Notes: a model not told the origin generated them from the letters alone. A stretch of DNA of 64,000 nt from Rhodospirillaceae bacterium (GCA_018660465.1 JABJKH010000007.1:16031-80030), one strand, 5' to 3'. Counted from the first letter of the stretch, positions 7,565 to 36,797 are shown. Program-made: numbers and translations.

Positions 7565-8269
7565 CTACCCCTGAACTTCCTCTACTAAGCCCTCTAATTG
7601 TTCTAAGTCATGAATGATTAGGGAGTTTTTCGTGCGCTCTACAATGCCCTTACGGGCCAAATCATTCATCACCCGGGCCACAGTCTCCCGCGTGGTGCTA
7701 ACCCGGCTCGCGATGTCACCATGCACAGGGATCGGTTTTAAAATAACTTGGTTTTGGATGCCGTCGAACTCGTCACTTGCCTGTGCCAATCGCAATAAAT
7801 CCACATGAACGCGGTTATTGGCACCCAGGGTGCTCAAATCCATAATCCGTTCCGTTGAAAACCGAACAAGGCGGCACAAGTGCTGCATAATAGCCAGAGC
7901 GAGTGCCGGAATTTCTTCCAATAAGGCCAAGAACCTGCTGGAGGGCATAACAACGATCAGGCAATCGGTAAGTGCCATAACACTGGCTGACCGCGGCTCG
8001 CCATCAATCGCCGCCAACTCACCAAACTGTTGGCCATCGGTCACGTCGTCCAGAGTTACTTCGCGCCCGGAAAATGAATAATTCACCACCCGAACCTTCC
8101 CCTTAACCACGAAGAAGATATCCTTGGTCTGGGCGTGACGGTCAAAGATTTGTTCGCCGGCGGCAAATTTTTTGTAGCGGCAATGGGTCTCGACCTCGGC
8201 CAACGCCGCAGGCGGGACGTCTTGCAGCAACTTTATGCCCGTCAGGACCTTCGGCGTATTATCCGGCAC
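7565..8269 (-). CDS. Crp/Fnr-family transcriptional regulator (cNMP-binding domain + C-terminal HTH)
   Basis: The 234-aa protein has a phosphate-binding-cassette-like FGELAAIDGEPRSASVMA and a C-terminal HTH (SRVSTTRETVARVMNDLARKG). It lacks an FNR-type N-terminal Cys cluster. Confidence 0.85.
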   Translation of the reverse strand: MPDNTPKVLTGIKLLQDVPPAALAEVETHCRYKKFAAGEQIFDRHAQTKDIFFVVKGKVRVVNYSFSGREVTLDDVTDGQQFGELAAIDGEPRSASVMALTDCLIVVMPSSRFLALLEEIPALALAIMQHLCRLVRFSTERIMDLSTLGANNRVHVDLLRLAQASDEFDGIQNQVILKPIPVHGDIASRVSTTRETVARVMNDLARKGIVERTKNSLIIHDLEQLEGLVEEVQG

Positions 8270-8405: not shown

Positions 8406-9404
8406 CTATAGTCTCGGATGCAAAGGTTCCCGTGGTTCATTTAGGATGTCAAAATTTAAAAACGATAGAAAAAGCTGCATTCCGACAATAATTGGTAAGG
8501 CTGCAATCATGACAGAGCCGGTTGTCGCCGTTACACCCGTTGTCGAAGAAAGCCACCATTGATAGCCCCCGAACACAGCGCCAAACAAGATCAGAAGCGG
8601 CCCCAAGACAACCTCAATAGAAGCAACGGAAAAATTTCTGAGAAAATAACTATAAATAATTCGCTTAAATGTGTTGCTGATATTCCGACACAGGAATTCG
8701 CCGATCACGTTCATAATTTTCAAATTGCTGACTTCATCACCGTACTTGGCTGACATCGGAAAGTCGGAAACGACGGCCCGCATGACATTCAAATGAAATA
8801 GCATGTCGGATTCAAAGAAATAGCGCTTGGCAATTTTTTCCATCGGCAATTGCTCCGCCACCTTGGCGTGAATTGCGGTAAATCCATTCGTCGGGTCGAA
8901 TGAGTTCCAATATCCACTGGAAACCTTGGTCATAAACGATAGCAAGGCGTTGCCGACAAGCCTAATTTTGGGCATTTCACGAAGGTCACTCGGGTTATAA
9001 AAGCGATTACCCTTACAGTAGTCTGCAACGCCTGAGATTATTGGGCCGATTAGTTTGTTAATCAGTGCTGGATTCATCTGCCCGTCACCATCGACTTTAA
9101 CAATTATGTCCGCGCCATCGGCCATGGCTTGGCGGTAACCGGTCATAACGGCCCCACCAACGCCTTGATTTGTCTCGTTATATAAGACTGTAACCCTATC
9201 TGAGTTTATATTTTCAGCAATGAGCTTGCCGCTCTTTTCCGGACACCCATCATCAATCACATAAATCGCGTGACATTCAGGTCCAATCCCGTCCACGACC
9301 CCAATGATATGCCGGCTGACCTTATACGAAGGAATTACAACAGCAACCTTAGGAGGCACCGTTTGGGGATCGGGGCTATTTTTTCCGGACTCAGACAACG
9401 CCAT
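8406..9404 (-). CDS. Family 2 glycosyltransferase with C-terminal TM helices (GtrB/ArnC/DPM1-like polyprenyl-phosphate sugar synthase type)
   Basis: Motifs are VVIPSYKVS, IDDGCPEKSG and VDGDGQMNP (DxD-like), with two C-terminal hydrophobic helices. I prefer the ATG start at 9404. The tracked ORF extends to a TTG at 9503. Confidence 0.8.
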   Translation of the reverse strand: MALSESGKNSPDPQTVPPKVAVVIPSYKVSRHIIGVVDGIGPECHAIYVIDDGCPEKSGKLIAENINSDRVTVLYNETNQGVGGAVMTGYRQAMADGADIIVKVDGDGQMNPALINKLIGPIISGVADYCKGNRFYNPSDLREMPKIRLVGNALLSFMTKVSSGYWNSFDPTNGFTAIHAKVAEQLPMEKIAKRYFFESDMLFHLNVMRAVVSDFPMSAKYGDEVSNLKIMNVIGEFLCRNISNTFKRIIYSYFLRNFSVASIEVVLGPLLILFGAVFGGYQWWLSSTTGVTATTGSVMIAALPIIVGMQLFLSFLNFDILNEPREPLHPRL

Positions 9405-9567
9405 CAACAGATCCGTTTTAATTTCAACACATTGCGCGGCAAAACCAAGTCTATGGCTTCGCCGATTCCCTGACAACCTGTTAGGGCAGTAATTAATCGC
9501 CAATTGTTACGGAAGCTACTGGAGAATTATCGATCCGAGGCCGATTAATCCTCTGGGTGACTAGGAA

Positions 9568-11172
9568 CTAAGAGTCCCGTATAGGTGCAGCTTGTCCATG
9601 GAATCCCCGGTATTGTTGACGAATAAAGCCGAAAATTCCATGGCTTATCATCGACGTGAGACCTTTACCGCCCCGATAAAGCCGATTGACGTCTTCCATC
9701 GAGCGAATTGAACTAAGGTTCGTGTACCACATTCCAGGCGACGTATACATTTCAATATAAGCCCGCTTATACCAATACTTCATGCTCTCTTTATCGAAGT
9801 TTGGATTTACATACACCGGATCGTCGAAATCGATGGCAATAAAGTCGCTCCAACTGGCGGCCCTGCGCAATCCGCCCATTTCCTTGCAGCTCTTATAAAG
9901 AGCCGACCCTGGATAGGGAACCGGCAAATAGAATAGGGCCATATGAGGCCGCAACTTTTTAGCAAACTTAATGGTGTTCCGCACCATCGCTTCATCTTCA
10001 CCGGGCAAGCATAGGATAAAGTTACAGAGGATTCTCATCCCCGCGTCGCGCACCATTTTGACGCCGGCCTCTTGTTGCTCGACGGTGCACCCCTTTTGGA
10101 CGACCTTCAGAGATTCTTCATTTCCAGACTCAATGCCTGTGCTGAGCAGCCGACATCCCGCCGTATACATGGCCTCAAGAAGTTCTGGATCCACCCGGTC
10201 CATACGGGTTCCCGCCGCCCATTTTAAATCCAAATTTTCCTTCACCATCAATTCCATCAGCTTCATGGTATGTTTTTTATTAATGGTAAATGTCGAATCT
10301 TGGAAATAAACACCCTTCGCACCATGCTCATATTTCAGAATTTTTAATTCCTCTATAATTCGCTCGGGCGAGAAGAATCGGCTCTTTTTCCCGAGAATTT
10401 GAGCGGCTTCACAGTAAGAGCAAGAAAACGGGCATCCCCTTTGGGTCATTATGGAAAAAGTCGGGAGTTTAACATATTGAGTCGGGTGGGGCACATAGCG
10501 CGAAATATCTAAATCCGAATTAAAACCGACAGGAATATCATCCAACTCTCCAAGAAAAAGCCGGTTAGGGTTGACCTTCACGGCATCATCTTCACCTCTG
10601 TACACAAGGCCAAGAATTTCAGAAAAATCGTCATCTCCTTCGGCCAATGCATTCAATAGCTCGTCGAACGTATGCTCCGCTTCGTGACGGATGATAAAAT
10701 CAACTTCCGGGCACTGTTCCATGGTGAATTCAGGCAGCGTCGATGCATGAATATTACCAAATACAATTTTAGCGTTTGGCAGGACCCTTCTGACAATTTT
10801 AGCAGAAGAAAACGCATAATCGGCAGTCGGCGTAAATACCGGCAAAGCAACGATACTGTATTGTTCCTCTTCTAGTTTGGCGACCAGGGATTCTTCGGTA
10901 ACATCACCAAACTGGGTATCCAAAAAATCAACCGTATAGCCTCTTGCCTTAAGCCATGAATAAACCGAAATTGTGCCGATCGGCAGGAGATACCCCTGCT
11001 CTGTTTTTGCACTTCCCCAAGCAGCCTCTGCTGGAAAAAGCGGTTCCAAAAGTAAAATTTTCAGAGCCTTAGCTTCTTCGCTTGGCGCATAGTCCAACTT
11101 CTGGTCGTGGCCGACCTTGTTAACCGATGAAGTTAACGGCGAGATATCCAGAATGTTGACTTCTTGATCCAT
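9568..11172 (-). CDS. B12-binding-domain radical SAM enzyme (class B)
   Basis: The 534-aa protein has an N-terminal B12-binding-like region (KILLLEPLFP...). The CxxxCxxC cluster motif is GCPFSCSYCEA. A strong SD (GGGGGA) precedes the ATG. Confidence 0.85.
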   Translation of the reverse strand: MDQEVNILDISPLTSSVNKVGHDQKLDYAPSEEAKALKILLLEPLFPAEAAWGSAKTEQGYLLPIGTISVYSWLKARGYTVDFLDTQFGDVTEESLVAKLEEEQYSIVALPVFTPTADYAFSSAKIVRRVLPNAKIVFGNIHASTLPEFTMEQCPEVDFIIRHEAEHTFDELLNALAEGDDDFSEILGLVYRGEDDAVKVNPNRLFLGELDDIPVGFNSDLDISRYVPHPTQYVKLPTFSIMTQRGCPFSCSYCEAAQILGKKSRFFSPERIIEELKILKYEHGAKGVYFQDSTFTINKKHTMKLMELMVKENLDLKWAAGTRMDRVDPELLEAMYTAGCRLLSTGIESGNEESLKVVQKGCTVEQQEAGVKMVRDAGMRILCNFILCLPGEDEAMVRNTIKFAKKLRPHMALFYLPVPYPGSALYKSCKEMGGLRRAASWSDFIAIDFDDPVYVNPNFDKESMKYWYKRAYIEMYTSPGMWYTNLSSIRSMEDVNRLYRGGKGLTSMISHGIFGFIRQQYRGFHGQAAPIRDS

Positions 11173-11293
11173 ATTAGATCCCCCTTTTCGAATCCTATAT
11201 AAAAACGCCTAAACTATCTTTCAAGTCCAGCAAATTTATTTTAATTCCAATTCGTTGCCACACATTTAACGGAAGCGAAAATGAGGTTTCAAT

Positions 11294-13186
11294 TCAGTCC
11301 TTGATCTCAGTCGGAGACATATACCCTTTGAACGGCCATGATTTCAGCACTTTCCACCCGCCGCCATCGCGCTTCAGTAGGTAGGATGCGCCTTTTTTTA
11401 AGTTAGGATTGATAGCACCCAGAACACCAGGGGTAATACTATGAACCCAAATAAAGTCCGGCTTCTTCCGATCCAGGTTAAGTCGAATGTTTTGAGCTGT
11501 CGCACTGGAATAAGCACTAATTTGTCCCACCATCTTCCGGCCTGCCATGTACATGTGATAGCGCATTTGCGTGCCGTAGGCGCCATCGCTTTCAGGATCA
11601 ACAGCCACTATGGTTGCGTCTTTTGGAAGCAGCTCGACAATTTCAGGCACTATCTCTCGAATATGAATTTTGGTCGCACGCACATCAAAGCGTAGCTTAT
11701 GGATCAAACCGACCTGAAGCCCAATAACGAGAATGATCGCCAGCCACATTACGGGCCGAAGATTCCATCCGCGCCCAAAAATATAGCGCCGATACAAAAT
11801 TCCAAGAACCACTATAAAGGCAACGACAACAATTAAACCCAAGTGCGTATTATAGCGCCAAAATGATGCGACCCGAAGCGCATCGAACCGACCAAAGACT
11901 GCCAAATATGTAATTAACAGGAAGACGTTGTAAGACATGAACGCAAAACCTGCCATTACGAACAAGCGGTCTCGTGCTCCACGCCATCGAAACAACCCGT
12001 ATAGAGCCATACCCGAGAGGATAAATGAGGGAATAAAGTATCCACCCTTTTTCGTAACAACATAAAATGCCCGCATCAAAATATCGTAAGATATCTCCCA
12101 GAACCATTTATCAAACGGTCGGATCGTGTGCTGTGGGCCGACTAAATTGCTCGCGACGTATTGTCTCCAGATTAAAAATATCACAATTGCCGGGATAATT
12201 ATTAAAGGAAGAAGAGACACAAATTCTTTTAATTTTATCTTTGAATCCCGCAGCGCTACAAGGATCACGGCGAACAATAAAACCAAGAAAAGCGCCAAAG
12301 TCGCCTGTTTCAAACTGATCAAAATGAGCAACGCCAAGGCGAGCATCCAGGCCTGCCGTCGTGCCTCTTTCCGATTACCCTCTGCCAACTCCTCAAACAT
12401 ATGCCAGGCAATGATCATCCCGAGGGCCATTGCCAGACCGGATGCCAGCTCACCGTATGCCGTCAGAACCAGTTTTTGCACAAACGTCGGATTAAGAATT
12501 GTTACTGCGAGAATCCCTGTTGCGCACGCCCACCAAGGCGGAGCCTCGTCGGAGAACAACTGCGGCTCCGTCTGCTGCTCAGGCCGACCTTGAGCCACAA
12601 TTATCCGGGCAACCAAATGAGCGAACGACATCAGCATAAGAACGTTCAAAACGGCTGTCGTGTTCTCAATAAATTCACCGGCAATGTTACTCGTTAAATA
12701 AACCGGAAACCCCATGCCATAGGGATAGCCCGCCATAGAGGCTGCGCTACGAGGCAGGTCTGCGTTTGGAAAACTGTCCCACACGAAGAGATAATGCGCC
12801 GCTGGCAGCCAATGGGCGAATTCATCCCACTGTGACGGATGCATTGCCGAAACCACCAATATCATCGGTAATCCCAGCAACGCTGTCCGCCCGATCCCTT
12901 TAGGCAAAAGAGGAATTTGTCGTTTAACCACCACCCAGACCGAAACCAAGAGCGCGGCAAAGAAAATCCAACCCGCAATCTTTAACGGCCAGCCAAATAA
13001 TGCGCCCGTCACTGTGAAGATGATAATTATGAAAGCCCAGCCAAAGATCACATTCATCTCCGGCATACGATGACGACCGGTAATCGCAGCACCAATCACA
13101 GACATCGCAGCGGCGATGGCCACAATAACACCAAGCATCAAAAATTGGTTTAAGCTGGGGATAAATAGATCAATTACGGACATCAA
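11294..13186 (-). CDS. Large polytopic membrane protein, GT-C-like putative glycosyltransferase
   Basis: The 630-aa protein has more than 12 predicted hydrophobic helices. An acidic motif lies in an early loop (QWDEFAHW), as in GT-C enzymes, and there is a C-terminal soluble domain. The function is inferred from architecture and context only. Confidence 0.55.
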   Translation of the reverse strand: MMSVIDLFIPSLNQFLMLGVIVAIAAAMSVIGAAITGRHRMPEMNVIFGWAFIIIIFTVTGALFGWPLKIAGWIFFAALLVSVWVVVKRQIPLLPKGIGRTALLGLPMILVVSAMHPSQWDEFAHWLPAAHYLFVWDSFPNADLPRSAASMAGYPYGMGFPVYLTSNIAGEFIENTTAVLNVLMLMSFAHLVARIIVAQGRPEQQTEPQLFSDEAPPWWACATGILAVTILNPTFVQKLVLTAYGELASGLAMALGMIIAWHMFEELAEGNRKEARRQAWMLALALLILISLKQATLALFLVLLFAVILVALRDSKIKLKEFVSLLPLIIIPAIVIFLIWRQYVASNLVGPQHTIRPFDKWFWEISYDILMRAFYVVTKKGGYFIPSFILSGMALYGLFRWRGARDRLFVMAGFAFMSYNVFLLITYLAVFGRFDALRVASFWRYNTHLGLIVVVAFIVVLGILYRRYIFGRGWNLRPVMWLAIILVIGLQVGLIHKLRFDVRATKIHIREIVPEIVELLPKDATIVAVDPESDGAYGTQMRYHMYMAGRKMVGQISAYSSATAQNIRLNLDRKKPDFIWVHSITPGVLGAINPNLKKGASYLLKRDGGGWKVLKSWPFKGYMSPTEIKD

Positions 13187-13355
13187 TAATTAAACCGCCT
13201 CTTGGGCTCCAAAAGAATGATTGGTACCTTGGATTTTCAGACTAAACATTCAGAAAGTTAGTCTTAGAAAGTTAGCTCGGGAATTTTTTCAATATTAAGC
13301 GGCCTGAACCTACAAGAACCGCCCCTAAACACAACATAATTCTAAAGATATGCAG

Positions 13356-14930
13356 TCACGAGCGCGCGGCCAAATTCCTGCCGATCCGGTCTGCATTGGC
13401 CATGATTGTAAATGTTGGGTTTTTGCCGGCGAGTTGAGGAAAAATGGCACCATCGGCGATATGGAGTCCCGGAAGGCCCACCACCTGTCCTTGGGCATCC
13501 GTCGCCAATCCAGAACCTCCCCCCATGGGAAACGTCCCCGCGTAATGAATATCGCTGCCAGGTTCTGAGATCCGCGCACCGCCGGGCAAGGCATAGGCCC
13601 CAAGATGGCGAAATCCTTTGGTAAGCTTATGGCGAAGGGTCTCCACCCGATCTTTAAAATCCGACGCATACGCGCCCTGAATTTGAAGCTCGCCAGAACT
13701 TCCCAAGGTAACGGCATGGTGGCTGTAGTCCCCTGGCAGAAAACAATTGAGAAAAACCAATGACGGCATTACCCGGCGCAAGAACCCAATGGCAGCTGGG
13801 CGACTAAGGGGCAAGTGGCGAGCGATCTCAGACGTCAGTAATGATCCGCCTGAGAACACCACCCCGTGAGCATAATCGGGATCATCTGGACCGGCCTCCA
13901 CCCTAAACCCCAATTGCCCGAGCGAAAAACCTTTGCTGGCAACTGCACGACCAATTCTCCCCGGCAAACATAACGCCATCGCAAATGCTGGGTTTGAGAC
14001 CAGCTTGATCGGTTGATCACGATGCCCAAGGGATTGCAGCGCAAGCTTCGTTGACCCAATCGTTCCCGCCGCAAGAACCACTGTTTTTGCCCTGACAACG
14101 CCGCCCTCATAGCGCACCACGATCTCGTCCCCCTCGCGCTCAACAGCTTGGACAAAGCATCCTCGGCGATATGTGAAACCGTCGCGTTTACCCAGCGCCT
14201 CAACATCTTGCGCCGCGCTGTAGATTGAGCCCTTCGAGCAGCCCCACAAACACATGTCGTCTTCCGTACACGCCCTTCGATTGCCCAAGGACGCACTCAG
14301 CACAGCATTTCGCGCCCGACCAAGATAAAAGCCTAACGCCTGAGCCTTTTCCCGGCGCGCCTCATACCGTTGCAAAAGGTGCTGCGTGTTTTCATGCAAA
14401 GGGATCGGTGCCTGCAACGGTACATCGCTGCCATAGAATTCACCCATATCGTCGGCCGCCTCACCACTCACGCCGATGCGCGATCCAACGGCTTTGAATG
14501 ACGCTGCCAAATCTGCCCGTGAAATGGGAAACCCCTTCAAGTCCCGATCATCGTAAGCATAGGCCCCAGCCCCCCAGGCATTTGAGAGTCCCCCTGTCGC
14601 AAGAGACCCCACCGCCATGAAGGACTTGGTCTTCAGCCGATAGGCTTCGGAAAATCCTTCGAACGTGTAGGCGCTCGCCGGCACTTTTAATTTCGGCGAT
14701 ACGTTGCCCTGATCCTTAAGACCGTGAAAATCCTCGCCCAGGAATACCCGCCATTGATCCTCATCCTGGCGACGAATATCCAAAAAAGCGCCTTCGGTCT
14801 TCGGCGTATCTTTTGGACCCAGCCCCTGATCGAGCATCAATACCTTCCGGCCCGCCTCTATCAGCGGCCAAGAAACCGAGACCCCAGCGGGACCACTGCC
14901 GATCACAATGACATCCGCGTCAACCGTCAT
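13356..14930 (-). CDS. GMC-family FAD-dependent oxidoreductase
   Basis: The 524-aa protein has an N-terminal FAD fold (VIVIGSGPAGVS). C-terminal GMC-like motifs are HYAGTFPMG and LHIADGAIFP. Confidence 0.8.
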   Translation of the reverse strand: MTVDADVIVIGSGPAGVSVSWPLIEAGRKVLMLDQGLGPKDTPKTEGAFLDIRRQDEDQWRVFLGEDFHGLKDQGNVSPKLKVPASAYTFEGFSEAYRLKTKSFMAVGSLATGGLSNAWGAGAYAYDDRDLKGFPISRADLAASFKAVGSRIGVSGEAADDMGEFYGSDVPLQAPIPLHENTQHLLQRYEARREKAQALGFYLGRARNAVLSASLGNRRACTEDDMCLWGCSKGSIYSAAQDVEALGKRDGFTYRRGCFVQAVEREGDEIVVRYEGGVVRAKTVVLAAGTIGSTKLALQSLGHRDQPIKLVSNPAFAMALCLPGRIGRAVASKGFSLGQLGFRVEAGPDDPDYAHGVVFSGGSLLTSEIARHLPLSRPAAIGFLRRVMPSLVFLNCFLPGDYSHHAVTLGSSGELQIQGAYASDFKDRVETLRHKLTKGFRHLGAYALPGGARISEPGSDIHYAGTFPMGGGSGLATDAQGQVVGLPGLHIADGAIFPQLAGKNPTFTIMANADRIGRNLAARS

Positions 14931-16198
14931 GGGTTCCGCCTGCCCAACAAAATTCTAAGTGGCAAGAAAACAGCCTCAACAGCCAGCAACACACCAAGTT
15001 CAAAAATAGAAATCAGCCAAGACCTCTGGTCCAAGGCGCAGAAGTCTTTGGCACCTTCCGGTGTTGTCTCCGCAATAACCATGGCAATCGCCAAGCGATC
15101 CGCCACCCTCCCTGCTCCGCCGATAGGTTCAAAGATTCTCATTAGTCCAGGCCAGCCATAGACGATGCCCGGCAAATTTAGTGGGATACTCCCGCGCGTC
15201 GCTTCCACTGCTCGTACGTACCGACGAATGAGACTTTCACGGACAGAACGCCCCGTGACATATGTTAGCAAGGCTCGGCCTTCACGCAGTAGCCGCCGAC
15301 GATTTTTTGGGTTTTCCTGGGCGAAGGCTGAAATCGCATCACACGGGGCCATCCCCAGCGCCTCAAACGATGCCGGGCTGTCCATGATTGCGATATCGGT
15401 CAACCCGAGCACCCGCTCACGTGGGATATTGGGAAGACCCGGTATAACCCGCGCAATTGCAATTCCCATCAAGACAAAACTTATGGGTAAAGGCACCAGC
15501 CGAATGCGTCTTCCAAACCGCGTCCAAGCGAGGTCCTTAATCAGACGCCCAAACGAGATAGGAGTCGGATCGCCCAAATAAAACATTTTTTGCTTTGGCT
15601 GCACACTTGGGTCTGCCAATCGCAGGAGGGCCTCACAAAGCTGATCCACATGAACTGGCTGCAATAAAGTAGACGCACACGTCACCGGCACGATGGGGGC
15701 GGTTCGAACCATCTCACAAAGTTTTCCATAGACCCCACCTTCTTCACCGCCACAAACAAGTCCAGGTCGCACAATTAATGCGTCGAACTCAGCCAACATT
15801 GTTTCGACGGCAAATTTTCCTCGTCCGTACGATGTAGGAGCATCTGGGCGCGATGATTGACTGGAGACAAAAACAAACCGCGACACACCTGCTTTATGAG
15901 CAGCCTCCGCCAAAGCCCGGGTGCCGGTTACATCAACCTCTCCGCCCTCACCATCGCTCAAGCCGGCAGAGGCTAGATGAACAACGGCGTCCATGTCGGT
16001 GAGATCAGGGGCTGCCCCACTCAAATCATAGGAGACAAACTGGTAAGCACCTTCTTCAATCCCCTCAGGTCGCTTTCGCCCCAGCACGGTCAGCTCAATC
16101 CCCTGCGCTAACGCCTGCCGACATAACCGTCGACCGATGTACCCACCGCCACCAGTTACAGCGAGGCAAAAAGGGTTTGGGGTTTCTTGATCTTGCAT
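14927..16198 (-). CDS. NAD-dependent epimerase/dehydratase-family SDR with hydrophobic C-terminal extension
   Basis: The Rossmann motif is AVTGGGGYIGRRL and the YxxxK motif is SYGRGKF. About 130 extra C-terminal residues include hydrophobic segments. I prefer the ATG at 16198 over the TTG at 16234. There is a 4-nt overlap with the downstream GMC gene. Confidence 0.75.
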   Translation of the reverse strand: MQDQETPNPFCLAVTGGGGYIGRRLCRQALAQGIELTVLGRKRPEGIEEGAYQFVSYDLSGAAPDLTDMDAVVHLASAGLSDGEGGEVDVTGTRALAEAAHKAGVSRFVFVSSQSSRPDAPTSYGRGKFAVETMLAEFDALIVRPGLVCGGEEGGVYGKLCEMVRTAPIVPVTCASTLLQPVHVDQLCEALLRLADPSVQPKQKMFYLGDPTPISFGRLIKDLAWTRFGRRIRLVPLPISFVLMGIAIARVIPGLPNIPRERVLGLTDIAIMDSPASFEALGMAPCDAISAFAQENPKNRRRLLREGRALLTYVTGRSVRESLIRRYVRAVEATRGSIPLNLPGIVYGWPGLMRIFEPIGGAGRVADRLAIAMVIAETTPEGAKDFCALDQRSWLISIFELGVLLAVEAVFLPLRILLGRRNP

Positions 16199-16295
16199 GC
16201 GCGGAGTATAGGCGGGCAGGTCGGCAAGCGGCAAGAAACTCGCCCGATAGCAGACTTATCTCTAAGATACTTGAAAGCAGGGAGAACATCTGACC

Positions 16296-18116
16296 ATGTC
16301 GACTGAGAAAAGCCGAACCTGGAGTTGGGAATTTGATAGCCCGCCCAAAGTTGTGTGGACCGCACTGGCCAACACTCAACGGTTTAACGAAGCCATCGGC
16401 GCACCGACATACAAAGTCGAAGAGCTACCGCAATCGGACGGCAGCGTTATTTCCATCGCGCGGGCGCGAAAAGGGCCATTTGATTTAGAATGGGAAGAAG
16501 CGGTAGTTGACCGAGTCTTCAATCGTTGGTTTCACCAACGCCGGATATTTCTGAAGGGTCCGCTAAAAACGTTAAACTCTTGGCTTAAGATTACCCAAAC
16601 TGAAAAAGGGTGTCGTGCCGAATTTACCATTGCGGCGACCCCATCTGGGATGATGGGCCGACTTATTTTAGCAACTCGATTTTTTTCTGGCCCTGATCGT
16701 GTACTCAATCAACTGGCCGCTAACATGAAATCATTTGCGGACGGCACGGTGGAAACACCCTACGAGGTACCCCCGCCAACCTTAGCCCTTGGCAGCGAAG
16801 CCCGTATCCGCGACCTTAAGGAAGCTATCGACCAATCGCCCTTTTCTCACGGCTTAACGCAACGACTGGCCGACTTCGCATTCAAACGACAAGACGCCGA
16901 TGTGTCACAGATACGGCCCTTGGCGCTGGCAAGGCTGTGGAATGTTCCCGCACGGCACGCGGTCGAAGTATGCCTTCAGGCGGCGAAACAAGGACTCCTA
17001 GGTCTACGCTGGCATCTGTTATGCCCTCACTGCCAAGGCGGAAAAGGAGAATCTGCCTCCCTCGATCAACTGCCCGTAGGCGAACACTGCAACTCCTGCA
17101 ATATAGATTTTGACCGGGAATACTCGGGCAATGTTGAACTGGCGTTTCATCCTGCTGCAGCAATTAGACCCGTCGAGACCGCTGCCTTTTGTACGGCGGG
17201 ACCAATGGTCACACCCCATGTTGTCGTACAGATTTCTCTCAAACCAGGAGAAACAAGAACGGTCACAGCAGAACTGGCTCACGGAAGCTATCGCCTTCGC
17301 ACCGTAGAGCCAGGTCCAAGCCACATCATTGACTGGCATTCAGGCGGTTTTCCGGAAGTCATTGCCAATGTAGATTCTATGGAAGCGGGTGCCCCAGTTG
17401 ATTCCGGAAAAATTACCTTAACCAACCGTACTGGCCGTCGGCTGGCCTTGGTGATAGAGGAACGAGGTTGGGCGCGTGACGCCCTGACGGCAGATAGAGT
17501 GACAACCTACCAAGCCTTCCGTGATCTCTTCTCCCGTGAGGTGCTGAGGCCTGGTGATACCGGAGATATCGATCATGTCACCCTGATGTTTACAGATCTC
17601 AAGGGATCGACCGCGCTTTACAATCGTGTCGGCGATCCAGAAGCTTACGCTCAAGTCAGAGACCATTTTTCCGTTCTTGGCACTGCTGTTCGCGAAAATA
17701 ACGGTGCCGTGGTTAAAACCATTGGCGACGCGATTATGGCTGCATTCGCCAACCCCCTAGATGGTTTGGCGGCGGCGATCCAAATTCAGAATGATATGAA
17801 GGCTCATAATTCGACCACTGAGGGCGAACCTTTGATCATAAAAATTGGTCTAAATACCGGACGATGTATCGCCGTCACGTTAAATGACCGGTTGGATTAC
17901 TATGGTGCCACGGCCAATCTAACGGCCCGCCTGGAAAGTCAAAGCCAAGGGGGGGACATCATTTTGTCGGAGTCGCTCACTCATGATGCGGCGATCTGTG
18001 ATAGACTAACTAAGATCACATTGGAAAAGGGAATGGCCGAATTAAAGGGGTTCGCGGATAGCATCCCGTATTTTAGAGTATTGGCAGACGACATAAATAA
18101 GCTTGTAGACGATTAA
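16296..18116 (+). CDS. Class III adenylate/guanylate cyclase with N-terminal SRPBCC-like and Cys4 zinc-ribbon-like regions
   Basis: The C-terminal cyclase domain shows VTLMFTDLKGSTALY, GDAIMAAF and RLESQ. The middle region has CPHC...CNSC. The N-terminus has an SRPBCC-like pattern. Confidence 0.85.
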   Translation: MSTEKSRTWSWEFDSPPKVVWTALANTQRFNEAIGAPTYKVEELPQSDGSVISIARARKGPFDLEWEEAVVDRVFNRWFHQRRIFLKGPLKTLNSWLKITQTEKGCRAEFTIAATPSGMMGRLILATRFFSGPDRVLNQLAANMKSFADGTVETPYEVPPPTLALGSEARIRDLKEAIDQSPFSHGLTQRLADFAFKRQDADVSQIRPLALARLWNVPARHAVEVCLQAAKQGLLGLRWHLLCPHCQGGKGESASLDQLPVGEHCNSCNIDFDREYSGNVELAFHPAAAIRPVETAAFCTAGPMVTPHVVVQISLKPGETRTVTAELAHGSYRLRTVEPGPSHIIDWHSGGFPEVIANVDSMEAGAPVDSGKITLTNRTGRRLALVIEERGWARDALTADRVTTYQAFRDLFSREVLRPGDTGDIDHVTLMFTDLKGSTALYNRVGDPEAYAQVRDHFSVLGTAVRENNGAVVKTIGDAIMAAFANPLDGLAAAIQIQNDMKAHNSTTEGEPLIIKIGLNTGRCIAVTLNDRLDYYGATANLTARLESQSQGGDIILSESLTHDAAICDRLTKITLEKGMAELKGFADSIPYFRVLADDINKLVDD

Positions 18117-31495: not shown

Positions 31496-33097
31496 TTATT
31501 TTTTTACCAATTTTCCTGCGCAATCAATGCCAGACAGGAGAACTTTTTCATATCTATTTGGGCACGTGGCGGTCACTTTAAAACCTGGAGCCGCCTTCTT
31601 CAAATGCTTGCTCAAGTGGACCCAATGAGTTCCTCGAATATAGACGCAGGGGTAACTCGCGATAATCTTAGCCGCATCCCGCGACCCCTTCCAGTCCCTG
31701 AAATCCATGGTGTTTTGTTCAAACCAAAAATCATTAGCAGGCTTGGTTTGAGCTAGCTTTTCTCCAAATCGGCTACCAGTCCACCAATCACCAAGTGCCA
31801 GGGCAAAGGACTGTGTGCTCGCGGGAAAGACATAGAGTCTTGCACATTGCGAAAAGCGGTTATCGTCAATACGAAGTGCTTCCGCATGTTTAAACTGCTG
31901 TTCTTTATCTAAGCGTTTAACGCTAAAGGGTTGCGCTAAAATCAAGATACAAAGAAGCCCCCGAATAACCAGCCCCGCGCGGGCGCGAAAGACATCACCA
32001 CCAAATTTAAAGCCTGCTACCAAACGCACCAACATGACAATGGTGAGAGCGTTCATCATATACGCTGGAATCATGAAGTTGGCGGTCGGTTGCTTTGCAA
32101 CCAAAAGGACTTGTGCCAATACTGCCAGACAAAGCCCCGCAACGGCCTTCGCATCATTATTCCAGTGCCGTTTCCAAGCTGCCACGGCCAACGCGGTCAG
32201 TCCCAAAACGAAGGGGGCATGCAGGAGCGGCCGACCAAATATTTCGCGGACCGCCTTGGTGTATGCGTCAGGGTCTACAAACCCCACGGCACCACTACCG
32301 TAGGCCCCCGTGCCCGTCGAAATCTTCAGCATCCAATTAAAAAATATGTCCCAGGACCCAAATGCCGGTAACGTGAAAACAACCAGCGCCAGGAACGAGA
32401 TTCCTGCGTAAACCGTGAGTGCCCTAAACGACCCCAACAAAAAGAGTGGTAATAGATAAATTGGCGCGGAGATAACCTTCACCGCGACACCGAACCCGGC
32501 GACGATCCCAAATGCCACCGCATAACGCAGGCGCATCGATTGCAGGGCACCGGAGCGTTGCGCCGACACCATTACCATCATCAGCATCAGCATCGTGATA
32601 ATCACGAACGATTCAGGCCGAACCTGATAGGAATTTTTCAACGTGACCATGGATAGGAATGGCGCCGCCTGAAGGACGAGCGCGAAGACCTTACTCTCAA
32701 ACACCCGATAGGCAACGGCACCTACCAGGACCAAACCAATCGCCGTCACGCAAACCGTCGCCGTGCTGATCAACCGCAAATGTCCTTCTGGATCGGCGAG
32801 CACGATATCTGCAATCGCCTCGCCCCCAGTTAACGGATAGACCGCCTTGAGGACCAAGGCGCCGAAGACCTGGACCGGCGTGCCTGGGTGATACGGGTGC
32901 CCGGGCCAATTCAGATTTACGAGATTCACCGCGTCGTAAAGATAAAAATAAGACGGGTCTAGCAAATACCAAAGCCAGAACGGCCCACCGCCGTGCCGCA
33001 ACCAAAAGACGGACACCAAGAAACAAAGTGGCAGAACCAGCAACATCCCCCACAAGGGGAGGTATTGGCGCTCCAGTGGCGGCAGGTGATTTCTCAT
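31496..33097 (-). CDS. Polytopic membrane protein, ArnT/PMT (GT-C)-like putative glycosyltransferase
   Basis: The protein is about 533 aa with many TM helices and a soluble C-terminal domain. The ATG at 33097 overlaps the TGA of the upstream gene (TGATGA). The function is inferred from architecture and context. Confidence 0.55.
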   Translation of the reverse strand: MRNHLPPLERQYLPLWGMLLVLPLCFLVSVFWLRHGGGPFWLWYLLDPSYFYLYDAVNLVNLNWPGHPYHPGTPVQVFGALVLKAVYPLTGGEAIADIVLADPEGHLRLISTATVCVTAIGLVLVGAVAYRVFESKVFALVLQAAPFLSMVTLKNSYQVRPESFVIITMLMLMMVMVSAQRSGALQSMRLRYAVAFGIVAGFGVAVKVISAPIYLLPLFLLGSFRALTVYAGISFLALVVFTLPAFGSWDIFFNWMLKISTGTGAYGSGAVGFVDPDAYTKAVREIFGRPLLHAPFVLGLTALAVAAWKRHWNNDAKAVAGLCLAVLAQVLLVAKQPTANFMIPAYMMNALTIVMLVRLVAGFKFGGDVFRARAGLVIRGLLCILILAQPFSVKRLDKEQQFKHAEALRIDDNRFSQCARLYVFPASTQSFALALGDWWTGSRFGEKLAQTKPANDFWFEQNTMDFRDWKGSRDAAKIIASYPCVYIRGTHWVHLSKHLKKAAPGFKVTATCPNRYEKVLLSGIDCAGKLVKK

Positions 33098-34077
33098 CAC
33101 CCCATCCGCTCTTGGCATTGCGCCAAGATCCGCGTGACCTCAACACCCTGATCAAGGCTTGCCGTTGAGGTATCACCATTTGAGATGGCGTTGGCAAATT
33201 CCCGAACTGCAACGGTGACCGGCATTTCATTACTAATAGGGATCGCGCGACCTTCACCCTTGGGTTCAGCTACATCAAGTTGGGCGGGGTATTCCATCAG
33301 TTGCCCCGGAACCGCATCATCGTAAGCCAATACTGTATCGTCAAAGAAGACGGCAAAGCGGCGGTGGCGGTCGGTTAAGTTTCCGAAAGTGATATCGGCG
33401 ACAGCGCTTTCTGAGAAAGTCAGGCGGAGATGATGGTTTTCGCCGATGCCGCCCTCTACTTCGCGGCGTTCCAGAACACGTGCCGCGACCGATACCGGCG
33501 TTCTCTCCAGCACCCCCAAGGCAAGCGCCACTTCGTGCGAGCCCCAATCCCACAGCACGGGAGTATGTCTCCGGTATGGCCCATGGTCGCCGACACTTGA
33601 CCACACACCACGCGCCGGTCCCGAGGTTGCAATTCGGTCCTTAATTTCTCGGTACGCAGGCCGGAAAAGATGAGTATGTTCGACAAGCACCAAACCATTG
33701 TTGGCAATGGCGCATTCGCGAATTTCGTCTGCCTCATTAACATCGAGCGTCATCGGCTTTTCAACCAGAACAGCCTTGCCCGCATCAAGTGCCGCACAGG
33801 CTATCTCAGCATGGTGTTGAGGAGGCGTTGCGATGATAACGCCAGAAATTATTTTATCGGCGATCAATTCGCGCCAATCTGTTGAGATTTTACAGTCGGA
33901 ATCAACCAGCGACTTACTGTCTGAATTTCCACTGGCCAAATGAGCCAGTTGCACGCCCTCTAAACCGGCAATTGTTTTGATATAAATCTTGCCCCACGGC
34001 CCCGCACCAATCAGACCTAAGTTGATGGGGCTGCCAGCCACGGTTATTGCTCGCCGATATAGATTCCATCCGCCCAC
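33097..34077 (-). CDS. Gfo/Idh/MocA-family NAD(P)-dependent oxidoreductase
   Basis: The N-terminal Rossmann motif is INLGLIGAGPWG, followed by a family-typical EKP motif (VLVEKPM). An alternative GTG start lies at 34041. Confidence 0.8.
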   Translation of the reverse strand: MGGWNLYRRAITVAGSPINLGLIGAGPWGKIYIKTIAGLEGVQLAHLASGNSDSKSLVDSDCKISTDWRELIADKIISGVIIATPPQHHAEIACAALDAGKAVLVEKPMTLDVNEADEIRECAIANNGLVLVEHTHLFRPAYREIKDRIATSGPARGVWSSVGDHGPYRRHTPVLWDWGSHEVALALGVLERTPVSVAARVLERREVEGGIGENHHLRLTFSESAVADITFGNLTDRHRRFAVFFDDTVLAYDDAVPGQLMEYPAQLDVAEPKGEGRAIPISNEMPVTVAVREFANAISNGDTSTASLDQGVEVTRILAQCQERMG

Positions 34078-35105
34078 GTCAGGAATCGTTTTAGGCCGTC
34101 TTCAATCCCCACACTCGGTTCAAATTCGATTTGAACATTGGCTTTGCGGATATCCGGGCAACGTCGGTTGGGCTCGTCAGCGGGATAGCTATCAGGGTAT
34201 TCAATAATGTCGTAATCGACTTTTTGATCGAGAGCATTTTCGATGTGCTTCACAAGATCGACCATCGAAATTTCTGGCTTGGGGTTGCCAATATTATAGG
34301 TCTCACCCGGCACACCCTTGAGAACCGTCAGCATAAAACCCGTCATGGCATCGGAGATATAGCAGAACGTCCGAGTTTGATTTCCAGAACCATAGACGTG
34401 CAACGGTTTGCCGCCCTTAATCCGGCTCGCGAAGTTCGGTAGTACCCGATAGTCCGCTTCCATCATACCAGGGCCATAGACATTAAAAGGTCTAATAACA
34501 TTTGCCGACGTGCCGAACTTGTCATGGTAGATGTGGCAGAGCGTTTCACCGACCCGCTTTGACTCGTCATAGCATGCGCGCGGCCCTTGGCTCGCAACAT
34601 TGCCGCGATAGCTTTCGGGTGTGGGGACGTGCTTGGGGTCTGGATCGCCATAAATTTCTGAGGAACTGAAGAACACAAATCTGGCCTGATGCTTATTCGC
34701 CAGTTCCAACATGTTGCGGGTACCGTTAACCGATACCATCAAAGTCTCAATCGGATAGGCACGGTAATAATATGGGCTGGCGATACCTGCGGCATGAATG
34801 ACGTAATCAAGTGGCCGGTCCCATTCAAACGGCTGGATCACGTCGTGCTCAATAAACTCAACGTTTGGCAGGTCGGGAATTACATTCCCCGCCTTGCCCG
34901 CCGTAATCAGGTTGTCCATAGACACAAGCTTGCAAGGTTCCTTGAGGACATGTTCGTTCAGATAGGCGAACACCTCCGTAAAGTAGCGACCAAGGAAGCC
35001 ACGACCCCCGGTTAGCAAGATCGTTTTGCCGCTAAAATCTTGCGCGGCTTCCCCTAAATTAAGGGCGATTTCAGCGACGTCGGAGGGTAACGAAAACTCG
35101 GTCAT
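34044..35105 (-). CDS. Extended SDR, UDP-glucuronate decarboxylase / NDP-sugar 4,6-dehydratase-like
   Basis: Motifs are LLTGGRGFLGRYF, SSSEIYG and YDESKR (YxxxK). The length is 353 aa. Confidence 0.85.
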   Translation of the reverse strand: MTEFSLPSDVAEIALNLGEAAQDFSGKTILLTGGRGFLGRYFTEVFAYLNEHVLKEPCKLVSMDNLITAGKAGNVIPDLPNVEFIEHDVIQPFEWDRPLDYVIHAAGIASPYYYRAYPIETLMVSVNGTRNMLELANKHQARFVFFSSSEIYGDPDPKHVPTPESYRGNVASQGPRACYDESKRVGETLCHIYHDKFGTSANVIRPFNVYGPGMMEADYRVLPNFASRIKGGKPLHVYGSGNQTRTFCYISDAMTGFMLTVLKGVPGETYNIGNPKPEISMVDLVKHIENALDQKVDYDIIEYPDSYPADEPNRRCPDIRKANVQIEFEPSVGIEDGLKRFLTWADGIYIGEQ

Positions 35106-35108
35106 GAA

Positions 35109-36353: not shown

Positions 36354-36358
36354 CAGAT

Positions 36359-36784
36359 TTATACTTTAACCATTTCGATCCGTTCGACGTCGGCCTCATA
36401 GACCTCCTGCTCCCGGGAATTTCGCCCCAGGGTGACAAACGTCGAATCTTGAGTAAAGACCATGGCGTGGTCAACCATCGGCGGCGTGAAGAACAACTGA
36501 CCTTTTTTGACCGTCACTTTTTCCGGTATTGCATCGCTGCCATGGGGGCGGTGGAAATAGTCGATTTCACCTTCCGTCACATAACAGTAATGCCAATCTG
36601 TTTTATGATAGTGGTTGGCGCGGACCGTCCCTTTCTTCGATGTAATAAATACGCAGCTTTCCATCGTGGTGTCGACCAACGGTTGGATTTCTCCGCGCTC
36701 GTCAGCAAAAGTATCCTTCAACGGCACGATGACTTCTTTCGGCCAACTTTGCTTTTCTTCCTCGGTAACAGGTTTGATTTTCAT
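36359..36784 (-). CDS. Cupin-fold NDP-sugar epimerase/ketoisomerase-like protein
   Basis: The product is about 141 aa from the ATG at 36784. The cupin core is RANHYHKTDWHYCYVTEGEI. The tracked ORF extends to 36877, but that extension would overlap the upstream gene. Confidence 0.62.
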   Translation of the reverse strand: MKIKPVTEEEKQSWPKEVIVPLKDTFADERGEIQPLVDTTMESCVFITSKKGTVRANHYHKTDWHYCYVTEGEIDYFHRPHGSDAIPEKVTVKKGQLFFTPPMVDHAMVFTQDSTFVTLGRNSREQEVYEADVERIEMVKV

Positions 36785-36797
36785 GATGTCTTTCTTT

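What the first reader, a model, noticed from the sequence alone, without database searches (positions are those of the whole stretch)
8406..16198. Uncharacterised envelope-modification cluster pairing a B12-radical SAM enzyme with polyprenyl-P-sugar machinery
Five consecutive minus-strand genes make up the cluster. They encode an SDR with a hydrophobic C-terminal extension, a GMC flavoenzyme (4-nt overlap with the SDR gene), a 630-aa GT-C-like membrane protein, a class B (B12-binding) radical SAM enzyme with a CPFSCSYC cluster, and a GtrB/ArnC-like GT2 with C-terminal TM helices. A GT2 plus a GT-C enzyme is the classic logic for building a sugar on a polyprenyl phosphate and transferring it on the periplasmic face, as in Arn, Gtr and Rgt systems. 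A class B radical SAM enzyme, usually a methylase of unactivated carbons, is not part of any such described pathway that I know of. No sugar-nucleotide synthesis genes are present.
Basis: partly seen in the sequence, partly recalled or inferred. Interest (0 to 1): 0.6.

Follow-up and report, generated by a model that had tools for sequence, protein, structure and literature searches.

The report
Lipid-linked sugar tailoring cluster with B12 enzyme
Five neighbouring genes most likely build a sugar on a membrane lipid carrier, remodel it there with a flavoenzyme, a reductase and a vitamin-B12 radical enzyme, and attach it to the cell envelope outside the cytoplasm; the core gene set is widespread and I found no paper describing it, and the B12 enzyme is a rare add-on that replaces ordinary methyltransferases.

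Summary
The 630-aa protein has no Pfam, NCBIfam or PDB sequence match. Its confident model (pLDDT 94) matches only GT-C glycosyltransferases. It founds an unmodelled family of at least 510 cluster representatives.

The GT2 is a polyprenyl-phosphate-sugar synthase with two C-terminal membrane helices. The SDR and GMC genes are a fixed pair. In 79 loci from many phyla they sit beside GtrB-like GT2s, GtrA, class-I methyltransferases and GT-C enzymes. This scan has already reported that cassette on other DNA. I found no paper on it.

New here are the orphan GT-C family and the B12-radical SAM enzyme. In the orthologous locus of close relatives (75-94% identical proteins, same flanks) the radical SAM gene is absent and two class-I methyltransferase genes are present. 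Across the 79 loci, the two main methyltransferase families and the radical SAM never co-occur (36, 6, 0). An unrelated B12-radical SAM lineage (25% identity) fills the same slot in Paramagnetospirillum kuznetsovii and other loci. One CPR protein fuses an ArnC-like GT2 to this radical SAM.

The enzyme is below cut-off for HpnJ and BchE. The genome has no HpnI or HpnK above cut-off. The sugar, the acceptor and the chemistry are unknown. This is a new variant of periplasmic three-component glycosylation.

The parts
14927..16234 (-). Membrane-anchored extended SDR (435 aa from TTG; 423 aa from ATG 16198). Proposed ketoreductase acting on the lipid-linked sugar.
   Evidence: PF01370 matches residues 25-209. 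TGxxGYIG, Ser, and Tyr-x3-Lys are invariant in 30 homologues. The AF2 model has pLDDT 92. Its best PDB folds are complex-I subunit NDUFA9, then GalE-type epimerases. The C-terminal 120 residues or so are helical with a terminal long helix. An SDR lies directly upstream of the GMC on the same strand in 49 of 79 loci; median length 427 aa.
13356..14930 (-). GMC-fold FAD dehydrogenase (524 aa) with a C-x5-C-x3-C motif (Cys 221, 227, 231). Proposed oxidase of a sugar hydroxyl.
   Evidence: PF05199 scores 44 bits (cut-off 24.6) and there is an N-terminal FAD fold. PDB sequence hits are sugar oxidases and dehydrogenases: pyranose oxidase, cellobiose dehydrogenase, paromomycin oxidase, and B. cepacia FAD-GDH alpha. 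The Cys motif aligns with the Cys-rich 3Fe-4S region of FAD-GDH alpha. It is present in 78 of 79 homologues. His462 and Asn512 are invariant.
11294..13186 (-). Orphan-family GT-C-fold membrane protein (630 aa, about 11 TM helices plus a C-terminal alpha/beta domain of about 110 aa). Proposed periplasmic transferase.
   Evidence: No Pfam, NCBIfam or PDB sequence hit. AF2 gives pLDDT 94 and pTM 0.92. The top Foldseek PDB hits are almost all GT-C enzymes: a chain of a secretory-translocon complex that I take to be STT3, PglB, Pmt4, EmbA/B, DPY19 and ALG3. Probability is 1.0 for the first five, and TM-scores are 0.24-0.42. Asp121 is invariant in a conserved SQWDEF motif. The profile finds 510 cluster representatives at E<=1e-30.
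9568..11172 (-). Class B (B12-binding) radical SAM enzyme (534 aa). Proposed tailoring enzyme for the lipid-linked sugar.
   Evidence: PF02310 and PF04055 match, and CPFSCSYC is present. It is below cut-off for every NCBIfam family; the best are HpnJ at 214 of 578 bits and BchE at 199 of 481. Homologues at 40-64% identity lie in glycan loci from many phyla. It is absent from the orthologous locus L117/L118, where class-I methyltransferases stand instead.
8406..9503 (-). GtrB/DPMS-like GT2 polyprenyl-phosphate-sugar synthase (365 aa from TTG; 332 aa from ATG 9404) with two C-terminal TM helices.
   Evidence: PF00535 matches. The best NCBIfam hits are AglJ, PpgS and ArnC, all below cut-off. The only PDB sequence hit is Pyrococcus dolichol-P-mannose synthase 5mlz. 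It is 52-60% identical to the GT2 of the SDR/GMC cassette in 34 of 80 loci from other classes.
13187..13355 (-). 169-nt intergenic gap between the GMC and GT-C genes. In close relatives this slot holds a 248-aa methyltransferase-like gene.
   Evidence: Comparison with L117/L118.

Best explanation
The cluster is a variant of a widespread periplasmic glycosylation cassette that tailors a sugar while it is bound to a lipid carrier. I found no paper describing the cassette.

Inferred steps:
1. The GT2 transfers a hexose or HexNAc from a common nucleotide sugar to undecaprenyl phosphate at the cytoplasmic face.
2. The GMC flavo-dehydrogenase, probably carrying a 3Fe-4S relay, oxidises a sugar hydroxyl to a ketone.
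3. The B12-radical SAM enzyme modifies the lipid-linked sugar. C-methylation is most likely.
4. The membrane-anchored SDR reduces the ketone. The net result is an epimerised and/or branched sugar.
5. An unidentified flippase moves the lipid-linked sugar across the membrane.
6. The 630-aa GT-C-fold protein transfers it to an unknown envelope acceptor.

What is shown: the folds and families of all five proteins, the conserved gene linkage, and the swap between methyltransferases and the radical SAM.

What is inferred: every chemical step, the sugar and the acceptor.
For: - GT2 family and topology.
- GT-C fold of the 630-aa protein.
- Cassette composition in 79 GMC loci, counted within 7 kb: SDR 60, GtrB-like GT2 46, class-I methyltransferase 36, PMT-type GT-C 26, GtrA 19, UDP-GlcNAc 2-epimerase 19. 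The canonical order is GT-C > GT2 > MT > GtrA > SDR > GMC.
- Orthologous locus L117/L118: same flanks, SDR 82%, GMC 87%, GT-C 75%, GT2 88% and CRP 94% identical. It has two class-I methyltransferase genes and no radical SAM.
- The two main methyltransferase families and the radical SAM are mutually exclusive across the 79 loci: 36 methyltransferase only, 6 radical SAM only, 0 both.
- The order SDR > GMC > (polytopic protein) > rSAM > GT2 recurs in Paramagnetospirillum kuznetsovii LBB-42 and in L034, L035 and L074. Their radical SAM lineage is only about 25% identical to the window's.
- L006 has SDR, a 139-aa gene, GMC, then a 62%-identical radical SAM.
- P0107 fuses an ArnC-like GT2 with two TM helices to a 40%-identical radical SAM.
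- The GMC relates to sugar-oxidising GMC enzymes and keeps the 3Fe-4S cysteines.
- PMC11127046 shows that three-component systems with auxiliary epimerases acting on Und-P-sugars exist.
Against: - No enzyme of the SDR/GMC cassette has been assayed, and the sugar and acceptor are unknown.
- No GtrA-type flippase lies in the cluster, and a tblastn with one Pseudomonas GtrA found none in the genome (low sensitivity).
- The two closest named radical SAM families (HpnJ, BchE) are not methylases.
- L006 and L034 carry both a radical SAM and a 344/345-aa methyltransferase of another family. The exclusivity therefore holds only for the two commonest methyltransferase clusters.
- The GT2-rSAM fusion is a single sequence on a single contig.
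- Foldseek TM-scores for the GT-C match are modest (0.24-0.42).
- Most same-order genomes carry the GT-C homologue without the other four genes.
Confidence: 0.55

Rival explanations
1. The pathway is the same, but the B12-radical SAM is not a methylase. It performs an HpnJ-like radical rearrangement of the lipid-linked sugar, such as ring contraction to a carbocycle or cyclitol, or another non-methylating reaction.
For: HpnJ (214 bits) and BchE (199 bits) are the best-scoring characterised families, and both are non-methylases. HpnJ acts on a lipid-linked hexosamine (PMC9204698). The second radical SAM lineage in the same slot also scores best against HpnJ and BchE.
Against: Scores are far below both cut-offs. 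In the published similarity network HpnJ co-clusters with the methylases MoeK5 and Fom3 (PMC9204698), so similarity to HpnJ does not separate the two chemistries. The gene occupies a slot held by class-I methyltransferases in orthologous loci.
Confidence: 0.15
2. The GMC and SDR are not an oxidise-then-reduce epimerase pair. The GMC makes the final product (a keto-sugar, or a uronic acid by C6 oxidation), and the SDR acts elsewhere, for example on the nucleotide sugar.
For: AsnB-like amidotransferases, which amidate uronic acids in other glycan pathways (background knowledge), accompany the cassette in 6 of 79 loci and all five other window-type radical SAM neighbourhoods examined. GMC enzymes can oxidise primary alcohols.
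Against: The two genes overlap by 4 nt. An SDR lies directly upstream on the same strand in 49 of 79 loci, many of the rest being truncated contigs. The SDR carries its own membrane-associated extension and resembles the membrane-peripheral NDUFA9. This window has no AsnB in the cluster.
Confidence: 0.15
3. The radical SAM gene is merely a neighbour. It arrived with low-GC DNA and acts on an unrelated substrate such as a cytoplasmic glycan intermediate or a lipid. It is not part of the GT2/GMC/SDR/GT-C pathway.
For: It is absent from the orthologous locus of close relatives. Most of its 40-64% homologues sit in Wzy- or GT4-type O-antigen loci without SDR and GMC. The genome holds at least five further B12-radical SAM paralogues, three of them in a glycan locus on contig C103.
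Against: It shares the strand and has short gaps (121 and 64-163 nt) with its neighbours. The same slot is filled by an independent radical SAM lineage in four other SDR/GMC loci. A GT2-rSAM fusion exists. GtrB-like GT2s with two TM helices lie in 4 of 6 window-type neighbourhoods examined.
Confidence: 0.1
4. The cluster decorates hopanoids or another membrane lipid head group, a non-canonical analogue of HpnI/HpnJ/HpnK, and does not use a polyprenyl-phosphate carrier.
For: The genome has a squalene-hopene cyclase (762 bits) and HpnB but no HpnI, HpnJ or HpnK above cut-off. The window's radical SAM is the best HpnJ-like protein in the genome. The GT-C family co-occurs with the cyclase in 19 of 20 same-order genomes, against 10 of 21 genomes without it.
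Against: The GT2 is 52-60% identical to the GT2 of cassettes that carry GtrA and PMT-type GT-C. Those occur in fluorescens-group Pseudomonas, which I believe lack hopanoids (my recollection; not checked). The GT2 does not match HpnI. The GT-C gene is never adjacent to hopanoid genes. The co-occurrence is confounded by phylogeny, and one complete genome (G021) has the GT-C without the cyclase.
Confidence: 0.06

Closest known systems
Three-component periplasmic glycosylation systems with auxiliary epimerases (Citrobacter youngae O1/O2 ORF15/ORF13/ORF12; Kelly et al. 2024, PMC11127046)
   Same: A sugar is built on undecaprenyl phosphate, optionally epimerised on the lipid by a cytoplasmic SDR, flipped, and transferred by a GT-C enzyme to a finished glycan.
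   Different: Those systems start from PRPP with a UbiA-type phosphoribosyltransferase and add pentofuranoses. This cluster has a GtrB/DPMS-like GT2, a GMC flavoenzyme, a B12-radical SAM and a GT-C of an unmodelled family.
DprE1/DprE2 decaprenylphosphoryl-ribose 2'-epimerase of mycobacteria
   Same: A flavoenzyme oxidises a lipid-linked sugar to a keto intermediate and an SDR reduces it. The product is used by GT-C transferases.
   Different: As far as I know (not tested here), DprE1 has a VAO-type fold, not a GMC fold. The substrate there is a polyprenyl-P-ribose. There is no Fe-S motif, no fused SDR anchor domain and no radical SAM.
Gtr (GtrA/GtrB/GtrC) and Arn (ArnC/ArnT) systems
   Same: A GT2 with a C-terminal TM hairpin makes the Und-P-sugar, and a GT-C enzyme transfers it in the periplasm.
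   Different: No GtrA or ArnE/F-type flippase lies in this cluster. In those systems the sugar is not redox-tailored on the lipid, although ArnD deformylates on the lipid.
HpnI/HpnK/HpnJ hopanoid head-group pathway and MoeK5 of moenomycin biosynthesis
   Same: A class B radical SAM enzyme acts on a sugar already attached to a lipid. HpnJ is the best-scoring characterised family for the window's enzyme. HpnJ, MoeK5 and Fom3 co-cluster in the published similarity network (PMC9204698).
   Different: The window's enzyme scores 214 bits against the HpnJ cut-off of 578. No HpnI or HpnK partner was found in the genome. No MoeK5 sequence was available for comparison. The lipid here is presumed to be a polyprenyl phosphate.
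FAD-dependent sugar dehydrogenase complexes (Burkholderia cepacia FAD-GDH alpha, PDB 6a2u/8hdd)
   Same: GMC fold, and a Cys-rich region that aligns with the region I recall as holding the 3Fe-4S cluster.
   Different: No cytochrome c or Tat hitch-hiker subunit gene lies nearby. The partner here is a membrane-anchored SDR. Overall similarity is weak (E = 3e-5).

Membership tests
Gtr-type three-component periplasmic glycosylation | GT2 polyprenyl-phosphate-sugar synthase with a C-terminal TM hairpin | tested here: met
   PF00535 matches. AglJ, PpgS and ArnC are the best NCBIfam hits. DPMS 5mlz is the only PDB sequence hit. Two TM helices lie at 293-311 and 331-349.
Gtr-type three-component periplasmic glycosylation | GT-C fold transferase encoded alongside | tested here: met
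   AF2 pLDDT 94. The top Foldseek hits are almost all GT-C enzymes (PglB, Pmt4, EmbA/B and others). There is no sequence-family match.
Gtr-type three-component periplasmic glycosylation | GtrA-family (or small SMR/EamA-type) flippase in the cluster | tested here: not met
   No such ORF lies between 8406 and 16234. A tblastn with a Pseudomonas GtrA found nothing in the genome. GtrA is present in 19 of 79 related cassettes.
Gtr-type three-component periplasmic glycosylation | Transfer of the sugar to a periplasmic glycan acceptor | not testable with these tools
   The acceptor is unknown.
DprE1/DprE2 lipid-linked sugar epimerase | VAO-type FAD oxidase (DprE1 fold) | tested here: not met
   The flavoenzyme has a GMC fold (PF05199; PDB hits to pyranose oxidase, cellobiose dehydrogenase and FAD-GDH).
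DprE1/DprE2 lipid-linked sugar epimerase | SDR ketoreductase partner | tested here: met
   It is an extended SDR with invariant Gly-rich loop, Ser, and Tyr-x3-Lys. It overlaps the flavoenzyme gene by 4 nt.
DprE1/DprE2 lipid-linked sugar epimerase | Polyprenyl-P-ribose substrate made by a UbiA-type phosphoribosyltransferase | tested here: not met
   The cluster's synthase is a GT2, and no UbiA-type gene lies in it.
HpnJ (TIGR03471) | Score above the curated cut-off of 577.6 bits | tested here: not met
   213.9 bits.
HpnJ (TIGR03471) | HpnI and HpnK partners in the genome | tested here: not met
   The best HpnI hit is 49 bits against a cut-off of 310. HpnK gave no hit. The assembly is 98% complete.
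BchE (TIGR02026) | Score above the curated cut-off of 481 bits | tested here: not met
   198.6 bits.
Class B (cobalamin-binding) radical SAM enzymes | N-terminal B12-binding domain plus a radical SAM core with CxxxCxxC | tested here: met
   PF02310 61 bits, PF04055 96 bits, CPFSCSYC.
MoeK5/GenK-type sugar C-methyltransferases | Sequence grouping with characterised sugar C-methylating class B enzymes | not testable with these tools
   No MoeK5 or GenK model or sequence is held. Only the published statement that MoeK5, Fom3 and HpnJ co-cluster is available (PMC9204698).
GMC oxidoreductases of the 3Fe-4S FAD-dehydrogenase type | Three cysteines of the Cys-rich cluster region | tested here: met
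   Cys221, Cys227 and Cys231 align with the Cys-rich region of 8hdd/6a2u. The motif is in 78 of 79 homologues.
GMC oxidoreductases of the 3Fe-4S FAD-dehydrogenase type | Small hitch-hiker subunit and cytochrome c subunit | tested here: not met
   Neither is encoded in or beside the cluster.

The most novel reading that the evidence does not exclude
B12-dependent radical SAM chemistry operates directly on an undecaprenyl-phosphate-linked keto-sugar. It would make a C-methyl-branched or carbocyclic sugar that a previously unrecognised GT-C family then installs on the envelope. This would be the first radical SAM step in polyprenyl-phosphate-sugar tailoring. At least two radical SAM lineages would have been recruited to it independently.
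Probability: 0.35. Interest if true: 0.8.

Novelty: new variant of a known kind. Interest (0 to 1): 0.6.

Why it matters
Periplasmic glycosylation from lipid-linked donors drives surface antigen diversity. Known systems transfer the sugar as made, or after a simple epimerisation.

This locus and its relatives point to a much richer tailoring stage on the lipid carrier: oxidation, methylation or radical chemistry, then reduction. The enzymes involved have never been assayed.

The cassette occurs in culturable, genetically tractable bacteria, namely fluorescens-group Pseudomonas and Paramagnetospirillum kuznetsovii. The hypothesis can therefore be tested directly.

The work also defines a sizeable GT-C family that has no database model. 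It gives a substrate hypothesis for a large, phylogenetically broad clade of uncharacterised class B radical SAM enzymes found in glycan loci.

Tried and rejected
- **Profile comparison of the GT-C family.** hhalign of the 630-aa family against the polytopic proteins in the equivalent slot of L006, L034 and L090, and against the window's own 540-aa protein, found no relation. I do not claim homology among them.
- **Promoter and terminator scans.** Counts equalled those of shuffled sequence and say nothing about operon structure.
- **Hopanoid reading of the GT-C neighbours.** The 382-aa radical SAM next to the GT-C homologue in relatives is an AmmeMemoRadiSam enzyme, not HpnH. The lead was dropped.
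- **Search for more GT2-rSAM fusions.** Only the singleton P0107 appeared.
- **Literature.** Eight searches and two class B radical SAM reviews found no description of the SDR/GMC cassette, and no B12-radical SAM in an envelope glycan or polyprenyl-P-sugar pathway.
- **MoeK5 comparison.** No sequence is held, so the comparison could not be made.
- **AsnB link.** It holds for the radical SAM's homologues elsewhere but not for this cluster. The genome's AsnB copies are on other contigs.

Full report
**Observation**

- SDR: 14927-16234.
- GMC flavoenzyme: 13356-14930, overlapping the SDR by 4 nt.
- 630-aa polytopic membrane protein: 11294-13186.
- B12-binding radical SAM: 9568-11172, with the motif CPFSCSYC.
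- GT2: 8406-9503, with two C-terminal hydrophobic helices.

Pfam and NCBIfam confirm the four soluble-domain assignments. They give nothing for the 630-aa protein. The flanks are housekeeping or regulatory genes: a CRP-family regulator at 7565-8269 and a class III cyclase at 16296-18116. SDR and GMC are GC-rich (0.55-0.565). The other three genes are GC-poor (0.46-0.485) against a genome mean of 0.514.

**The 630-aa protein**

It has no sequence match to any solved structure, even at E <= 10. A model built from 39 homologues is confident (pLDDT 94, pTM 0.92). Its best PDB fold matches are almost all GT-C glycosyltransferases:
- a chain of a secretory-translocon complex that I take to be STT3 (E = 2.4e-5);
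- PglB, Pmt4, EmbA/EmbB, DPY19, ALG3 and Pmt1/2.

TM-scores are modest (0.24-0.42), so this is a divergent member of the fold. Asp121 is invariant in a conserved SQWDEF motif. By the positive-inside rule this motif lies in a periplasmic loop after the fourth helix, which makes Asp121 a candidate catalytic residue. This placement is inferred, not superposed.

A profile search of 1.84 billion representatives finds 510 proteins at E <= 1e-30 and 900 at E <= 1e-10. The few named sources are Alphaproteobacteria or Rhodospirillales, and one comes from the Tara ocean survey.

**The conserved core**

A scan of one genome per species with a GMC profile returned 141 relatives. I examined 80 loci. The window's GMC is 51-53% identical to Rhodospirillales MAG proteins. 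It is 37-45% identical to proteins from cultured fluorescens-group Pseudomonas, Hoeflea marina, Achromobacter spanius, Luteibacter, Candidatus Nitrotoga and Paramagnetospirillum kuznetsovii, and from MAGs of Gallionella, Legionellaceae, Coxiella and several other phyla.

Gene clustering over 79 loci, within 7 kb of the GMC, gave these counts:

| Neighbour | Loci |
|---|---|
| SDR | 60 |
| GtrB-like GT2 | 46 |
| Class-I methyltransferase | 36 |
| PMT-type GT-C | 26 |
| GtrA | 19 |
| UDP-GlcNAc 2-epimerase | 19 |
| Unknown 375-aa protein | 18 |
| DegT aminotransferase | 10 |
| B12-radical SAM | 6 |
| AsnB-like | 6 |
| The window's GT-C family | 3 |

- The canonical order is GT4-GT2 > PMT-GT-C > GT2 > MT > GtrA > SDR > GMC > WecB.
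- The window's GT2 is 52-60% identical to the cassette GT2 in 34 of 80 loci.
- An SDR lies directly upstream of the GMC on the same strand in 49 loci. Its median length is 427 aa, so the C-terminal extension is a family trait.
- This scan had already reported the SDR/GMC cassette on other DNA. My counts agree with those notes.

**Details of GMC and SDR**

PDB sequence hits for the GMC are sugar-oxidising enzymes. Its Cys221-x5-Cys227-x3-Cys231 motif aligns with the Cys-rich region of Burkholderia cepacia FAD-glucose dehydrogenase alpha. From my own knowledge of that enzyme, this region binds a 3Fe-4S cluster. The motif is present in 78 of 79 homologues. I infer a dehydrogenase that passes electrons to a membrane acceptor, not an oxygen-using oxidase.

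The SDR model (pLDDT 92) best matches NDUFA9, which from my own knowledge is the membrane-peripheral SDR subunit of complex I. GalE-type epimerases follow. Its C-terminal 120 residues or so form a helical domain ending in a long hydrophobic helix. In L006 a separate 139-aa gene sits between the SDR and the GMC and weakly matches this extension.

**The radical SAM enzyme**

It is a class B enzyme below every curated cut-off. HpnJ scores 214 of 578 bits and BchE 199 of 481.

The genome has a squalene-hopene cyclase and HpnB. It has no HpnI, HpnJ or HpnK above cut-off.

Homologues at 40-64% identity occur in Magnetospirillum, Elusimicrobiota, Omnitrophota, Thermodesulfobacteriota, Rokubacteria and CPR bacteria. 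All five other neighbourhoods I read are glycan loci with AsnB-like amidotransferases and class-I methyltransferases.

Four observations tie the enzyme to the lipid-linked sugar route:
1. **Orthologous locus.** L117 and L118 have the same flanks. Their SDR, GMC, GT-C, GT2 and CRP are 82, 87, 75, 88 and 94% identical to the window's. They lack the radical SAM. Instead they carry a 248-aa methyltransferase-like gene between GMC and GT-C, and a 217-aa Methyltransf_23 gene between GT-C and GT2.
2. **Exclusivity.** Across the 79 loci the two commonest methyltransferase clusters and the radical SAM never co-occur: 36 loci have methyltransferase only, 6 have the radical SAM only, and none have both. 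L006 and L034 do carry a third methyltransferase type alongside a radical SAM.
3. **Independent recruitment.** A different B12-radical SAM lineage, about 25% identical but also HpnJ/BchE-like, fills the same slot in G034, G135, a Rhodospirillales MAG (L074) and P. kuznetsovii LBB-42. In the last the order is SDR > GMC > 591-aa polytopic protein > rSAM > GT2 > WecB, which mirrors the window.
4. **Fusion.** P0107, from a CPR-like contig, fuses an ArnC-like GT2 (221 bits, two TM helices) to a 40%-identical radical SAM. It is a singleton.

The review PMC9204698 states that HpnJ, MoeK5 and Fom3 co-cluster at a stringent network threshold. Similarity to HpnJ therefore does not decide between methylation and rearrangement.

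**Synteny verdict**

- Four of the five genes are syntenic in close relatives.
- SDR-GMC-GT-C is kept in two Rhodospirillales MAGs (L037, L038).
- The GT-C alone is present in 20 of 41 same-order genomes, the window's own included. It usually lacks the other four genes.
- The GMC is in only 3 of 150 other same-order genomes.
- In L120 the GMC is reduced to frame-broken remnants upstream of the GT-C gene.
- The locus is a plastic tailoring site, not a fixed five-gene operon.

**Mechanism**

The model I favour has six steps.
1. The GT2 makes an Und-P-hexose or Und-P-HexNAc.
2. The GMC oxidises a hydroxyl.
3. The radical SAM modifies the sugar, most likely by C-methylation given the methyltransferase swap.
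4. The SDR reduces the ketone.
5. An unidentified flippase exports the product.
6. The GT-C transfers it to an unknown acceptor.

Only the protein families, folds and gene linkage are shown. Every chemical step is inferred.

**Comparison with known systems**

The closest published systems are the three-component pentofuranose systems with auxiliary epimerases (PMC11127046), DprE1/DprE2, and Gtr/Arn. The window's cluster works like these but is a member of none, for three reasons:
- the flavoenzyme has a GMC fold, whereas DprE1 is, as far as I know, VAO-type;
- the synthase is a GT2, not a UbiA-type enzyme;
- no GtrA is present.

Two reviews of class B radical SAM enzymes (2022 and 2026) list none in envelope glycan or polyprenyl-P-sugar pathways. 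My literature searches found no description of the cassette.

**Verdict**

This is a real, coherent cluster. It is a new variant of a known strategy. It has two points of real novelty: a B12-radical SAM in the tailoring slot, and an unmodelled GT-C family. The core cassette has been seen repeatedly by this scan.

Noticed in passing
window 31496-37539 (minus strand): A second lipid-carrier-style glycan cluster. It holds a 231-aa GT2, a cupin, a TylC3-type NDP-hexose C-methyltransferase (PF08421 and PF08484), a 4,6-dehydratase-like SDR, a GFO/IDH/MocA oxidoreductase and a 540-aa protein with 9 TM helices and no Pfam hit. The organism may therefore make C-methyl-branched sugars by the classical nucleotide-sugar route as well.
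   Followed up: partly
own genome, contig C103 (about 4-12 kb, 28-46 kb and 69 kb): A large glycan locus with three B12-radical SAM paralogues of an Sden_1168-like subfamily, two AsnB-like genes and GT2s. In four same-order relatives (G017, G019, G021, G028) a radical SAM of this same subfamily lies directly beside the homologue of the 630-aa GT-C.
   Followed up: partly
same-order genomes G000-G040: The 630-aa GT-C family co-occurs with squalene-hopene cyclase in 19 of 20 genomes that have it, against 10 of 21 that lack it. The two genes are never adjacent. Shared ancestry probably confounds the pattern, and G021 (100% complete) has the GT-C without the cyclase.
   Followed up: partly
L120:3769-5061: In a relative whose GT-C is 66% identical, the GMC gene upstream survives only as frame-broken fragments and the SDR is gone. 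This is decay of the redox pair with the GT-C kept.
   Followed up: no
L004:10001-12511 (protein P0107): A single ORF fuses an ArnC-like polyprenyl-P-sugar GT2 (two TM helices) to a B12-radical SAM of the window's family. PMT_2-type GT-C genes, an AsnB and methyltransferases lie nearby. Only one sequence on one contig is known.
   Followed up: yes
L006:8372-9952: This is the only one of 79 GMC homologues that lacks the C-x5-C-x3-C motif. It is also the locus where the SDR's C-terminal domain is a separate 139-aa gene.
   Followed up: no
L055:12684-13811 and 17 other cassette loci: An unknown protein of about 375 aa with no Pfam hit and a weak TuaH-like NCBIfam hit. It follows UDP-GlcNAc 2-epimerase in the Pseudomonas-type cassette and is conserved in 18 of 79 loci.
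   Followed up: no
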